Below, one piece after another: positions 53,092 through 59,916 of a stretch of DNA of 64,000 nt. The stretch comes from Anaeramoeba ignava BMAN (taxonomy: Eukaryota; Protista; Anaeramoebae): positions 1 through 64,000 of the forward strand of contig JAPDFW010000074.1 in NCBI GenBank assembly GCA_028826165.1, in the 5' to 3' direction. The stretch's first letter is position 1, and each line of letters opens with the position of its first letter. The notes under the pieces were generated by a model. The model saw only the letters and a program-made list of their open reading frames with translations. It had not been told where the DNA came from and did not search any database. The translations under genes were made by a program, and so were the position numbers.

Positions 53092-53490
53092 TTAAAAAAT
53101 TCTGCAACAACTACAACATTTTTTGTCTGATTTTGATTTAACAACAGGATCAGGAATAAGAGGATCATCTATTTTATCATCTATTTGATTATCTTGTTTA
53201 TTATCTTGTTTATTATCTTGTTCATTATCTTGTTCATTATCTTGTTCATTATCTTGTTTATTATCTACTATAAATACATTTAAAATTGAACCATTTGTTA
53301 TTCCATATTCTTTTATTGTTTTATTGTTTTCAAGTTCAGTAGTATCAAGTAATAATTTTTGTTCATTTACTCCAAAATTTTTTTTTTGTTTTGAAATTAA
53401 TTGTTTAATTTTTTTTATTTTTTGATTTTCATTAATTTCAACTTCAATTTCTTCTCCAGTTAATGTATTTATTGTAATTTTAATAGACAT
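53092..53490 (-). CDS. Ubiquitin-like domain + acidic QDN(E/K) linker + CCSCCRIF CaaX tail
   Basis: MSIKITINTLTGEEIEVEI...EQKLL....LENNKTIKEYGITNGSILNVFIV aligns with the ubiquitin fold; no diGly; Cys cluster and CaaX. Confidence 0.82.
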   Translation of the reverse strand: MSIKITINTLTGEEIEVEINENQKIKKIKQLISKQKKNFGVNEQKLLLDTTELENNKTIKEYGITNGSILNVFIVDNKQDNEQDNEQDNEQDNKQDNKQDNQIDDKIDDPLIPDPVVKSKSDKKCCSCCRIF

Positions 53491-53725
53491 TTTTGTTTGT
53501 TTTTTGTTTATTTTTGTTTATTTTTGATTTTTGTTGGAATTGTTGTTTGTTAAAAAAGAAAAAAATGAAAAAAAATGAAAAAAGTTTTGTTTTGTTTTTT
53601 AATTTTGAAATTAAATTGAATTGTTAAAGTTTTTTTTTGTGTTATTGATTTGAATAAAAATATAAGAAAACAAAAGTAAAATTTTTTTTCCGAATTTTTT
53701 TTTTTGGAAAATGAATTTAATTAAT

Positions 53726-54045
53726 TTAAAGAATTATGCAACAACCACAACAACCTGAATCTTTCTCAATAAGAGGAAAGGTTTCATCTCCAAAATTTCG
53801 GTTTTTGTTATTTTGTGCTAGAACTACATTTAAAATTGAACCATCTGTTATTCCATATTCTTTTATTCTTTTATTGTTTTCAAGAGTTGTAGTTTCATTT
53901 TGTTTTGTTAATTTTTGATCTTTTATTGGGTAATTTTTTTTTTGTTTTGAAATTAATTGTTTAATTTTTTTTATTTTTTCATTTTCATTCACTTCAACTT
54001 TAATTTCTTTTCCATTAAATGTATTTATTGTAATTTTGATAAAGT
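53726..54045 (-). CDS. Ubiquitin-like domain + CCGCCIIL CaaX tail (start codon not resolved)
   Basis: The frame extends upstream of the ORF call as FIKITINTFNGKEIKVEVNENEK. No ATG is visible in this copy, possibly because of a consensus error. Confidence 0.7.
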
Positions 54046-54369
54046 TTTTTCTTTTTTTTGTTGTTTTTTGTTGGAATTGTTGTTTGAAAAAAAAGGAAAA
54101 ATGGAAAAAGGAAAAATTTATTCAATAAAAATAAAAAGGAAAAATTTAAATTTTAAAATTTTTTTTAAAACAATTTTTAATTCTTTTTAAAACAATTTAA
54201 AAGTTAATTCTTTTTAAAAACAATTTAAAAGTTTTTTTGTTAATTTTTTTGATAAAAATTAATTAAAAAAAAAAATTTTTTTTTAATTTAATTTTTTTGA
54301 TTTAATTGAGATTTAATTTAGATTTATATTTATATTTATATTTATATTTAGATTTTAATTTATAATTAA

Positions 54370-54800
54370 TTTATATTTATATTTATATTAAGATTTTTAG
54401 AATTTTTAGATTTCCAAATTTTAGATTTCGGTTTTTGATTTATTTTAGATTTAGATTTAGATTTACATTTTAAAATTTGAACCATTTGATTTATATCCAT
54501 ATTCTTTTTTTAGATTTTTATTTGATTTCAAGATTTAGATTTAGTTTCATTTTTGATTTATATTTAGATTTTATTTTGATTTTTTATTTGGGATTTAGAT
54601 TTTTTTGATTTTGAAATTAATTTGATTTAATTTTTATTTTAGATTTTCATTCAGATTTTCAATTTTAATTTATTTTTCCATTAAATGTATTTATTTTTAT
54701 ATTTGATTTAGATTTTTTTCTTTCCATTTTGTTTTTGTTTTTGGAATTTGTATTTGAAAAAGGAAAAATGGAAAAAGGAAAATTTTATTCAATTTATTTA
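54370..54800 (-). pseudogene. Degenerate ghost copy of the 53726 UBL-CaaX gene interleaved with TTTAGA repeats
   Basis: Landmarks of the neighbouring gene (AAAATTTGAACCAT, CCATATTCTTTT, TTTGAAATTAATT, TTTTCCATTAAATGTATTT, GGAAAAATGGAAAAAGGAAA) occur in the same order but are broken by TTTAGA units. Confidence 0.5.
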
Positions 54801-56330: not shown

Positions 56331-57923
56331 TTATCGTAATCTTAAAACTAAATGAAGAGTTGATTCTTTTTGAATATTGTAATCATTAAGAGTTCTTCCA
56401 TCTTCTAATTGTTTTCCTGCAAAAATAAGTCTTTGTTGATCAGGTGGAATTCCTTCTTTATCTTGAATTTTAGCTTTAACATTCTCAATAGTATCACTTG
56501 GATCAACTTCTAATGTAATAGTTTTTCCAGTTAAGGTTTTAACAAAAATTTGCATTCCTCCTCTTAATCTTAAAACCAAATGAAGTGTTGATTCTTTTTG
56601 GATATTGTAATCATTAAGTGTTCTACCATCTTCTAATTGTTTTCCTGCAAAAATAAGTCTTTGTTGATCAGGTGGAATTCCTTCTTTATCTTGGATTTTA
56701 GCTTTAACATTCTCAATAGTATCACTTGGATCAACTTCTAATGTAATGGTTTTTCCAGTTAAAGTTTTAACAAAAATTTGCATTCCTCCTCTTAATCTTA
56801 AAACTAAATGAAGTGTTGATTCTTTTTGAATGTTGTAATCATTAAGTGTTCTTCCATCTTCTAATTGTTTTCCTGCAAAGATAAGTCTTTGTTGATCAGG
56901 TGGAATTCCTTCTTTATCTTGAATTTTAGCTTTAACATTCTCAATAGTATCACTTGGATCAACTTCTAAAGTAATGGTTTTTCCAGTTAAGGTTTTAACA
57001 AAAATTTGCATTCCTCCTCTTAATCTTAAAACTAAATGAAGTGTTGATTCTTTTTGAATATTGTAATCATTAAGAGTTCTTCCATCTTCTAATTGTTTTC
57101 CTGCAAAAATAAGTCTTTGTTGATCAGGTGGAATTCCTTCTTTATCTTGGATTTTAGCTTTAACGTTTTCAATAGTATCACTTGGATCAACTTCTAATGT
57201 AATGGTTTTTCCAGTTAAGGTTTTAACAAAAATTTGCATTCCTCCTCTTAATCTTAAAACCAAATGAAGTGTTGATTCTTTTTGGATATTGTAATCATTA
57301 AGAGTTCTTCCATCTTCTAATTGTTTTCCTGCAAAGATAAGTCTTTGTTGATCAGGTGGAATTCCTTCTTTATCTTGGATTTTAGCTTTAACATTCTCAA
57401 TAGTATCACTTGGATCAACTTCTAAAGTAATGGTTTTTCCAGTTAAGGTTTTAACAAAAATTTGCATTCCTCCTCTTAATCTTAAAACCAAATGAAGTGT
57501 TGATTCTTTTTGGATATTGTAATCATTAAGTGTTCTTCCATCTTCTAATTGTTTTCCTGCAAAGATAAGTCTTTGTTGATCAGGTGGAATTCCTTCTTTA
57601 TCTTGGATTTTAGCTTTAACATTCTCAATAGTATCACTTGGATCAACTTCTAATGTAATGGTTTTTCCAGTTAAGGTTTTAACAAAAATTTGCATTCCTC
57701 CTCTTAATCTTAAAACTAAATGAAGTGTTGATTCTTTTTGAATATTGTAATCATTAAGAGTTCTACCATCTTCTAATTGTTTTCCTGCAAAGATAAGTCT
57801 TTGTTGATCAGGTGGAATTCCTTCTTTATCTTGGATTTTAGCTTTAACGTTTTCAATAGTATCACTTGGATCAACTTCTAAAGTAATGGTTTTTCCAGTT
57901 AAGGTTTTAACAAAAATTTGCAT
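56331..57923 (-). CDS. Polyubiquitin, 7 units, last unit ends LRLR-stop
   Basis: Intact 530-aa ORF = 6x76 + 74 aa. Confidence 0.96.
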
Positions 57924-58684
57924 TTTGAATTAAAGTTGTTTTTGTTTTTGTTTTTGTTTTTTAAAAAGTAAAAAAGAAAAAAGAAATGAAAAAAATAAAA
58001 AAATTTTTTTTCTTTTTTAAATTAATTTTAATGATGATTCATTGTATTAAAAAAATGATAATAATGATTTATTATTGATTTTTTAATTAAATTTTAATTA
58101 AATTACAATTAAATTACAATTAAAATTAAATTATTTTTTTTTCCGATTTAAATTTTAATTAAATTATAATTAGATTATAATTAGATTTTAATTAGATTTT
58201 AATTAAATTTTAATTAAATTTTATTTAAATTTTAATTAGATTTTAATTAAATTATAATTAAATTATAATTAGATTTTAATTAGATTTTAATTAGATTTTA
58301 TTTAAATTTTAATTAAATTTTATTTAAATTTTAATTAGATTTTAATTAAATTTTAATTAAATTTTAATTAGATTTTAATTAAATTTTAATTAAATTTTAA
58401 TTAGATTTTAATTATTTTTTTTTCCGATTTAATTTTTTTAAATTTGAATAATAAAAAAAATAATTAATAACTTATAAAATCTAAAATAAAATTTAAAAGA
58501 AATAATAATAATATTATTATATTTGTTTTGATTATTTCCTTAAAAAGAAAAAAAATTGATTTATTAAATTTTTTTGGAATTAATTAAAATAAAAAATATT
58601 CCAAAAAAAAAAGCAAATAAAAAGAGAAATTGGATTTCATATTGGATTTGAAATTGAATTTGGATTTGATATTGAATTTAATAT

Positions 58685-59144
58685 TTAAAAAATTCTGCAA
58701 CAACCACAACATTTTTTGTCTGATTTTGATTTAGCAACATTATCATGCACAAGAGGAGAGGTTTCAGTAGGTTTTTTTTTGTTTTCTTCATCTTTTGTTT
58801 CATTTTTTGATTCATCTTTTGTTTCATCTTTTGATTCATCTTCTGTTTCATCTTCTGTTTCATCTTTTGTTTCATCTTTTGGTTCATTTTCTATTGGTGT
58901 TTTTGGTTCACTTGATTGTGCTACTATAAATATATTTAAAATTGAATCATCTTTTATTCCATATTCTTTTATTGTTTTATTGTTTTCAAGTACATTATTA
59001 TCAAGCACTAATTTTTGGTCTTTTATTGGAATTTCTTTTTCTTTTAAAATTAATTCTTTAATTTCTTGAATTTTTTGGTTTTCATTCACTTCAACTTCAA
59101 TTCCTTCTCCAGTTAATGTATTTAATTGTAATTTTAATAGACAT
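58685..59144 (-). CDS. Ubiquitin-like domain + acidic DETK linker + CCGCCRIF CaaX tail (1-nt insertion near 59124)
   Basis: ATG at 59144 gives MSIKIT; an extra base follows and the UBL continues in ORF 58685-59089. Confidence 0.8.
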
Positions 59145-59487
59145 TTTTCTTTTTTGTTTTTGTTTTTGTTGTTTCTTGTTTTTTGTTTTTTGAAAAATGA
59201 AAAAAAAAAGGAAAAAAAATGAAAAAAAAAATTTTGCTTTTTTCCTTTTTTTCCTTTTTTTCCTTTTTATTAATTTTTTAATTTGGGAAAAAATTTATTT
59301 AATAAAAATAATAAAATTAAATTGAATTTTATTTAAATTTCTTTTTTAAAACAATTTAAAAGTTAATTCTTTTGATTAATTTTTTTTATTGATAAAAAAT
59401 TAATTCAAAAAAAAAGGAAAAAATTTGAAATTGAATTTGAAATTGAATTTGAATTTGATATTGAATTTGATATTTAATTTGATTTAT

Positions 59488-59916
59488 TTAAATAATAATG
59501 CAACATGGATCATCTTTTGTTTCATCTTTTGTTTCATCTTTTGATTCATCATTTGATTCATTTTTTGATTCATCATTTGATTCATCTTTTGATTCATCAT
59601 TTGATTCATCTTTTGGTTCATTTCCTATTGGTGTTTTTGGTTCATCTTTTGGTTCATTTTCTATTGATGTTTCTGATTCACTTGATTGTGGATCTACGAA
59701 AAATACATCTAAAACTGAACCATTTTTTATTCCATATTCTTTTATTGTTTTATTGTTTTCAAGTTTAACATCATCAAACATTAATTTTTGTTCATTTATT
59801 GGAATTTCTTTTTCTTTTGAAATTAATTGTTTAATTTCTTTTATTTTTTGATTTTCATTCATTTCAACTTTAATTTCTTCTCCAGTTAATGTATTTATTG
59901 TAATTTTAATAGACAT
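59488..59916 (-). CDS. Ubiquitin-like domain + acidic DES(K/N) linker + CCIII CaaX tail
   Basis: The first ~65 aa are identical to the 55605 gene; the tail is different and ends DDPCCIII. Confidence 0.85.
   Translation of the reverse strand: MSIKITINTLTGEEIKVEMNENQKIKEIKQLISKEKEIPINEQKLMFDDVKLENNKTIKEYGIKNGSVLDVFFVDPQSSESETSIENEPKDEPKTPIGNEPKDESNDESKDESNDESKNESNDESKDETKDETKDDPCCIII

What the first reader, a model, noticed from the sequence alone, without database searches (positions are those of the whole stretch)
53092..59916. Family of CaaX-anchored ubiquitin-like proteins interleaved with polyubiquitin genes, with Ras-like alternative second signals
Seen: five co-oriented genes encode a ubiquitin-fold domain (TLTG retained in four, no diGly, Lys48 position replaced), a low-complexity linker and a CaaX end: CCSCCRIF, CCGCCIIL, KKKRCIIF, CCGCCRIF and CCIII. 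Established: CaaX directs prenylation, and upstream Cys (palmitoylation) versus a polybasic patch are the two classical second signals that sort Ras isoforms. Membrane-anchored ubiquitin-fold proteins (MUB/UBL3) are known, and plant MUBs bind and inhibit E2s. Inference: these look closer to ubiquitin/NEDD8 than to MUBs and have long spacers. They may be an independently evolved, expanding family derived from neighbouring ubiquitin genes that displays a UBL on different membranes. With the GG-less units, the cluster would encode both soluble and membrane-tethered non-conjugatable ubiquitin mimics.
Basis: partly seen in the sequence, partly recalled or inferred. Interest (0 to 1): 0.78.

Follow-up and report, generated by a model that had tools for sequence, protein, structure and literature searches.

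The report
Reinvented membrane-tethered ubiquitin look-alikes, Anaeramoeba
An anaerobic amoeba carries, between its polyubiquitin genes, five duplicated genes for ubiquitin-shaped proteins that lack the attachment tail and end in a lipid-anchor signal; they likely act as membrane docking sites in place of the MUB/UBL3 protein this lineage appears to lack.

Summary
Five minus-strand genes encode a ubiquitin-fold domain, a low-complexity linker and a CaaX end, with the tails as quoted. Matching NCBI gene models name the organism as Anaeramoeba ignava. Only three genes are intact as assembled. Gene 4's frameshift is absent from short reads; gene 2 has no in-frame ATG (untested). A sixth copy is degraded. 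The genes were duplicated in blocks with three polyubiquitin genes, each ending LRLR-stop.

The proteins fail the MUB/UBL3 tests (no lap-bar loop, PF13881 below cut-off) and the UBL4A tests (no TUGS domain, SGTA-binding lysines absent). They score equally against ubiquitin, NEDD8 and UBL4A, so descent from the neighbouring ubiquitin genes is not shown. A published PANTHER table lists no UBL3 in three Anaeramoeba genomes but a full prenylation machinery. Two near-identical duplicates differ in their second signal: an upstream Cys in one, a polybasic patch in the other.

Best reading: prenylated, non-conjugatable ubiquitin-fold docking modules convergent with MUB. Lipidation, expression and partners are untested, and no close relative turned up outside this genome. 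New variant of a known kind; interest 0.45.

The parts
53092..53490 (-). g1: UBL + acidic DNEQ/DNKQ repeat linker + KKCCSCCRIF; 132 aa, intact
53726..54058 (-). g2: most divergent UBL + short linker + SGCCGCCIIL; no ATG in frame as assembled
   Evidence: its C-terminal part is in NCBI model KAJ5073462.1
54400..54727 (-). degraded sixth copy of g2, riddled with units of the adjacent 6-bp array; keeps an ATG in register with the place where g2 has none; pseudogene or consensus artefact
55605..56003 (-). g3: UBL + linker + polybasic KKNKPKKKRCIIF; 132 aa, intact (P0001)
58685..59144 (-). g4: UBL + acidic DETK/DESK linker + KKCCGCCRIF; the one-base insertion near 59125 is an assembly error
59488..59916 (-). 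g5: UBL + acidic DESK/DESN linker + DDPCCIII; 142 aa, intact
49784..50921 (-). polyubiquitin 1: 5 units, last unit ends at Arg74; one-base insertion in unit 2 (untested in reads)
56331..57923 (-). polyubiquitin 2: 7 units, intact, 530 aa, last unit ends at Arg74
60229..61594 (-). polyubiquitin 3: 6 units, last unit ends at Arg74; same one-base insertion in the last unit (untested in reads)

Best explanation
These five genes encode ubiquitin-fold proteins with no di-glycine and a C-terminal CaaX box that are predicted to be geranylgeranylated and would display the fold on membranes, at the end of a likely flexible linker, as a non-conjugatable docking or decoy site for ubiquitin-binding machinery, a likely lineage-specific stand-in for MUB/UBL3. 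Steps: (1) shown: fold, loss of Gly75-Gly76 and Arg72, CaaX with X = F, L or I, and duplication in blocks with polyubiquitin. (2) From established knowledge: X = L/I/F favours geranylgeranylation, followed by Rce1 and ICMT processing, and stable binding needs an upstream acylated Cys or a polybasic patch. The host encodes these enzyme families. (3) Inferred: g5 (CC, acidic) and g2 (four Cys) rely on S-acylation, g3 on its polybasic patch, and g1/g4 on both, so paralogues may partition between membranes. (4) Inferred, weakest: the Leu8/44/70 face binds ubiquitin or UBL receptors (proteasome receptors, UBA/UIM proteins, DUBs or an E2 backside). Without a lap-bar loop it would not block E1 charging of E2s the way MUB does.
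For: Fold: PF00240 in 5 of 5. AlphaFold model of g3 has pLDDT 89.3; Z 16.2, rmsd 1.4 over 77 residues to a ubiquitin variant. The buried core is selectively kept: 13 of 16 core columns invariant against 25 of 54 others, Fisher p=0.021, and 15 of 16 core columns all-hydrophobic (core positions recalled from the ubiquitin structure). Cys at -4 and Ile at -2 are kept in 5 of 5 although the neighbouring codons and linkers diverge. g3 and g5 are 98% identical in UBL DNA; g3 lacks the upstream Cys of g5 and has a basic tail instead (charge of last 15 residues +8 against -3), as a compensated anchor would. Host machinery in PMC11550330 Suppl. Data 4: 4 prenyltransferase alpha-family, 4 beta-family, 3 ICMT, 2 Rce1 and several palmitoyltransferase genes. 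The window's own Rac ends KKKCSIL. The same table lists 0 UBL3-family genes in all three Anaeramoeba genomes and 1 each in Trichomonas, Carpediemonas and Kipferlia. The patch stays hydrophobic in 4 of 5: L8, M/L/V44, F70.
Against: There are no expression, lipidation, localisation or binding data. The surface is poorly conserved: position 44 varies (M, M, L, V, T), 46-47 are mostly acidic and Gly47 is lost, so ubiquitin receptors may not bind. dN/dS between paralogue UBLs is 0.86-9.6 on very few synonymous changes, so there is no domain-wide sign of purifying selection. Other paralogue pairs in the window give 0.75-1.62 and third positions are 95-97% A/T, which makes the ratio weak either way. 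No close relative was found outside this genome, and the PANTHER bin holding these genes is empty in A. flamelloides. UBL3 is also scored 0 in Naegleria and Dictyostelium in that table, so a zero may be a miss. The model was built with ubiquitin in its alignment, and only 2 of 5 models were confident.
Confidence: 0.5

Rival explanations
1. They are very divergent MUB/UBL3 orthologues that lost the lap-bar loop, gained a linker and duplicated.
For: Same architecture (ubiquitin fold plus CaaX with upstream Cys; PMC10511055 passages). No other UBL3 is listed for Anaeramoeba while other metamonads keep one. The long stem (1.63 changes per column) could hide ancestry.
Against: The alpha2-beta5 loop has ubiquitin length and no Pro-Phe-Gly in 5 of 5, whereas MUB adds 3-7 residues with that motif. 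PF13881 lists 1 of 5 domains at 15.1 bits, below the cut-off of 23 and below ubiquitin's own 18.4. Orthology would need loop loss plus reversion towards ubiquitin-like sequence.
Confidence: 0.13
2. They derive from UBL4A/Get5, with the BAG6-binding tail replaced by a lipid anchor, and recruit SGTA-type chaperones to membranes.
For: NCBI names the g5+g4 model 'ubiquitin-like protein 4a'. PANTHER puts three locus tags of this cluster and one unlinked gene (M0811_00466) in the UBL4A family. UBL4A scores 40.0 bits, tied with ubiquitin and NEDD8.
Against: No TUGS-type domain: the tails are simple repeats with no such Pfam hit. UBL4A Lys46 and Lys66, which hold SGTA (PMC4240585 passage), align to D/Q and I/V (numbering from the ungapped matches). 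The label is a best-bin assignment.
Confidence: 0.12
3. They are young, weakly constrained passengers of polyubiquitin duplications, with little current function.
For: dN/dS at or above 1; g2 has no start and a sixth copy is degraded; duplication blocks are 93-94% identical; no relatives elsewhere.
Against: Core-biased conservation; CaaX kept in 5 of 5; the Cys-for-basic exchange between g3 and g5; g4's break is an assembly error; single-base breaks also hit Rac and an actin gene in this window.
Confidence: 0.15
4. The extra cysteines serve UBL3-style covalent attachment to cargo for vesicle sorting rather than S-acylation.
For: Human UBL3 modifies proteins through the Cys next to its CaaX Cys (PMC10511055 passages). 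Four of five paralogues have an adjacent Cys, and three have a CCxCC cluster.
Against: g3 has no second Cys. There is no sequence tie to UBL3. S-acylation is the usual fate of such cysteines (established knowledge).
Confidence: 0.1

Closest known systems
MUB/UBL3 (AtMUB1-6, human UBL3; Pfam PF13881, PANTHER PTHR13169)
   Same: Single ubiquitin fold, no di-Gly, C-terminal CaaX with upstream Cys; paralogues with different lipid anchors.
   Different: No lap-bar loop; below the PF13881 cut-off; sequence nearer ubiquitin/NEDD8; a 30-80 residue low-complexity spacer; one polybasic paralogue; arrayed with polyubiquitin genes.
UBL4A/Get5 (PANTHER PTHR46555; PDB 2dzi)
   Same: N-terminal non-conjugatable UBL in a small protein; 40.0 bits, Z 13.7; the automatic label of these genes.
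   Different: No TUGS domain; SGTA-binding lysines absent; CaaX end.
Ubiquitin and NEDD8/RUB1
   Same: Best sequence and structure matches (44-50 bits by profile); TLTG loop; same loop lengths.
   Different: 27-32% identity to the window's ubiquitin; no LRGG tail, Arg72, Gly47, Lys48 or Lys63.
Ras/Rho hypervariable tails (H-/N-Ras acylation versus K-Ras4B/Rac1 polybasic; recalled)
   Same: CaaX plus a cysteine or polybasic second signal.
   Different: The cargo is a ubiquitin fold; the sorting outcome is untested here.

Membership tests
MUB/UBL3 | Ubiquitin (beta-grasp) fold without C-terminal di-Gly | tested here: met
MUB/UBL3 | C-terminal CaaX, usually with an upstream Cys | tested here: met
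   CaaX in 5 of 5, upstream Cys in 4 of 5
MUB/UBL3 | Lap-bar loop: alpha2-beta5 loop 3-7 residues longer, (K/R)xPFG motif | tested here: not met
   PMC4996978 passages; ubiquitin-length loop and no PF in 5 of 5
MUB/UBL3 | PF13881 match above the curated cut-off | tested here: not met
   0 of 5 reach 23 bits; best 15.1; ubiquitin control 18.4
MUB/UBL3 | Closest structural neighbour is a MUB | tested here: inconclusive
   no MUB among the 50 entries shown of 726 with Z of 2 or more; an unlisted family is not excluded
MUB/UBL3 | Groups with UBL3 in a phylogeny | not testable with these tools
   no MUB/UBL3 sequence was returned by any search; the tree has none
MUB/UBL3 | Prenylation, membrane location, E2 binding | not testable with these tools
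   bench work
UBL4A/Get5 | C-terminal TUGS helical domain binding BAG6 | tested here: not met
   PMC4392246 passages; tails are tandem repeats, no such Pfam hit at E up to 0.1
UBL4A/Get5 | Basic SGTA-binding face (Lys46, Lys66) | tested here: not met
   aligned residues D/Q and I/V
Ubiquitin/NEDD8 modifiers | C-terminal di-Gly after the fold for E1 activation | tested here: not met

The most novel reading that the evidence does not exclude
After losing UBL3, Anaeramoeba ignava rebuilt a membrane-anchored ubiquitin-fold protein from the ubiquitin/NEDD8/UBL4A stock and diversified it into paralogues with swapped Ras-style address codes. Each sets a ubiquitin decoy on a different membrane, possibly including symbiont-housing compartments, and they are duplicated together with polyubiquitin genes that also release a non-conjugatable Ub74.
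Probability: 0.3. Interest if true: 0.7.

Novelty: new variant of a known kind. Interest (0 to 1): 0.45.

Why it matters
If right, a lipid-anchored non-conjugatable ubiquitin fold has evolved more than once, which says that cells gain from local, membrane-level control of the ubiquitin system. The g3/g5 pair, almost identical in the domain but opposite in second signal, is a ready-made test of whether the Ras targeting code is reused on a ubiquitin fold. The work also corrects public annotation: the 'UBL4A' label and the fused g5+g4 model are not supported. The impact is limited because the family is so far confined to one locus in one species.

Tried and rejected
No whole genome is held, so no genome-wide count was possible.

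Homologue searches: 1 hit of 55 candidates (g3 itself), 3 of 7986 (g3, a g2 fragment model, one 30% di-UBL), 3 of 7985 (the fused model, two multi-UBL proteins at 33-35%). One search showed 150 of 7564 hits and was filled by multi-UBL proteins, so single-domain relatives could not show. The best non-family domain among stored proteins scored 48.8 bits against 103-150 for whole family domains. One search gave 80 metagenome loci at 28-38% identity from 3 of 64 parts scanned, none with UBL-linker-CaaX. One search found none in viral contigs. Atlas hits were all under 0.9. These are weak negatives.

Expression: no RNA holder was listed. Run X2 is of unrecorded kind, and contigs cannot show expression.

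dN/dS was rejected as evidence of positive selection because of A/T saturation and similar ratios in control pairs. The first core-conservation count (11 of 16 against 22 of 54, p=0.085) used a wrong frame for g4's first codons and was redone.

The NCBI fusion of g5 to g4 (P0059) was rejected as a likely annotation bridge over the false frameshift: its donor falls in g5's first Cys codon; not tested with RNA.

The tree (51 rows, 45 picked from 1244 stored domains, bootstrap not converged) gives the family as one clade (99/99) and nothing on its parent. No complex prediction was run, as no candidate partner sequence was held.

Literature searches listed no paper whose title or abstract start concerns this family; of the Anaeramoeba papers listed only PMC11550330 was opened, and the library omits most subscription journals.
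Full report
Observation. The region 49.8-61.6 kb holds, all on the minus strand and in transcription order: polyubiquitin 3, g5, g4, polyubiquitin 2, g3, a degraded copy, g2, g1 and polyubiquitin 1. 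TLTG is kept in four. Di-Gly, Arg72, Gly47, Lys48 and Lys63 are lost in all. Of 22 frames in the window ending C-x-x-x-stop, the six over 130 aa are these five and Rac.

Organism and assembly. Two public gene models overlapping these genes are named Anaeramoeba ignava: KAJ5073465.1 joins g5 to g4, and KAJ5073462.1 (M0811_08579) holds part of g2. The genome paper (PMC11550330, passages read) describes a nanopore assembly polished with Racon, Nanopolish and Pilon. Single-base breaks are present even in the window's Rac gene and an actin gene.

Status of each gene. For g4, contigs of runs X1 and X3 (one sample) show the extra base left out, and the g4-specific contig is 172 letters in both. That is the length expected without the insertion: g4-unique words start at 58962 and the last g4-specific difference is at 59103. 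So g4 is intact, with the caveat that the contigs spanning the site are shared with paralogues. g2 has no Met in frame. The degraded copy upstream keeps an ATG in register, so either an assembly error or a lost start is possible; this is untested.

Duplication. g3 plus polyubiquitin 2 matches g5 plus polyubiquitin 3 at 93.4% over 2.2 kb. Polyubiquitin 1 with its upstream region matches polyubiquitin 2 with its upstream region at 93.7%. The interleaving therefore follows from tandem duplication of a mixed block and needs no separate explanation. UBL domains are 64-94% identical to each other and form one clade on a long stem.

Fold and family. An AlphaFold model of g3's domain (pLDDT 89.3; ubiquitin was in the alignment) matches ubiquitin variants best (Z 16.2, rmsd 1.4, 77 aligned), with Dsk2, Rad23 and UBL4A domains at Z 13.7-14.5. 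By sequence, ubiquitin, NEDD8, RUB1 and UBL4A tie at about 40 bits. The family profile gives 44-50 bits for ubiquitins and NEDD8/RUB1. Identity to the adjacent ubiquitin is 19-22 of 66-70 residues, so the parent is unresolved.

MUB and UBL4A tests. MUB's lap-bar loop, which blocks E1 access to E2 (PMC4996978 passages), is absent in 5 of 5. PF13881 scores are below cut-off and below ubiquitin's own. The UBL4A hallmarks, TUGS and the SGTA-binding lysines (PMC4392246 and PMC4240585 passages), are absent too. Suppl. Data 4 of PMC11550330 (searched by term) lists no UBL3-family gene in three Anaeramoeba genomes and one each in three other metamonads. It lists four UBL4A-bin genes in A. ignava only; three are this cluster by locus-tag order (inferred) and one is unlinked and unseen. 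Zeros in that table may be misses, since Naegleria and Dictyostelium also score zero. The main supplementary PDF (too large), file 8 (scans) and file 15 were not seen, and file 13 was cut.

Tails. X is F, L or I, which favours geranylgeranylation, and prenylation normally needs an acylated Cys or a polybasic patch (PMC12197051 passages). The host encodes prenyltransferase subunits, Rce1, ICMT and palmitoyltransferases. The sharpest detail is the g3/g5 pair: 98% identical UBL DNA and the same terminal Cys-Ile-Ile codons, but DDPCC in g5 against KPKKKRC in g3. The tip of g3's tail abuts a repeat array and was not checked in reads. Mixed anchors are already known among Arabidopsis MUBs, and upstream Cys patterns vary across UBL3 orthologues (PMC10511055 passages).

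Selection. Buried positions are kept more than surface ones (13 of 16 against 25 of 54, p=0.021). dN/dS is at or above 1 in most pairs, but control pairs behave alike and third positions are almost all A/T. The surface, including position 44, is variable. This argues against one tightly conserved partner and is the main weakness of the docking model.

GG-less units. All three polyubiquitin genes end LRLR-stop with near-identical 3' flanks. None of 14 other listed members of the polyubiquitin cluster ends so (15 listed of 9985). Single-ubiquitin ORFs ending LRLR-stop occur in 6 of 80 metagenome loci (at least one may be an exon end). The simplest reading is a cap that keeps the precursor from being conjugated (inference). 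Ub74 would still be released as one in five to seven units, and a decoy role is not excluded.

Mechanism and verdict. Most likely these are prenylated, membrane-tethered, non-conjugatable ubiquitin-fold modules that dock or sequester ubiquitin-binding proteins (0.5). Fold and signals are shown; lipidation follows from known rules; partners and membrane sorting are inferred. They work like MUB/UBL3 in design but fail two defining tests of membership. No close relative was found elsewhere, on weak searches, and no paper on the family appeared (PMC11354881 passages, added nothing). Earlier scan notes held nothing on this locus. New variant of a known kind; interest 0.45.

Noticed in passing
window 49784, 56331, 60229 (ends of the three polyubiquitin genes): Every polyubiquitin gene ends at Arg74 with no Gly-Gly and no extra residue, unlike 14 other listed cluster members.
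   Followed up: partly
P0051, P0152, P0077: Divergent multi-UBL proteins from other organisms end in CVIS, SSCVIL (lamprey model XP_078740965.1) or a polybasic run plus CKC. Six of 149 non-family hits have Cys at -4. A hint that ubiquitin-fold plus prenyl tail recurs; not tested against chance.
   Followed up: partly
L045:2977-3294 (approximate): A ubiquitin with Gly-Gly followed by a short Cys-rich extension ending in CC, on a 149 kb marine metagenome contig.
   Followed up: no
window 19607-20186 and 25499-26630: Rac GTPase (ends KKKCSIL) and an actin gene each carry a single-base frame break, probably assembly errors.
   Followed up: partly
window 51667-53092 and 54923-55603: Long A/T-rich arrays (12-bp unit, 121 copies; 6-bp unit, 114 copies) begin right after the stops of g1 and g3; short versions follow g4 and g5.
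   Followed up: no
window 47171-49531 and 61820-62674: The cluster is flanked by a convergent RasGEF-domain gene and a divergent Fcf2 gene.
   Followed up: partly
window 7759-13693: Three tandem genes built of about 56-residue repeats, propeller-like by eye, two with hydrophobic N-termini and all ending in EKEL, an ER-retention-like signal.
   Followed up: no
PMC11550330 Suppl. Data 4: A geranylgeranyl diphosphate synthase family member is listed for A. ignava but for neither A. flamelloides strain nor the other metamonads in the table.
   Followed up: no
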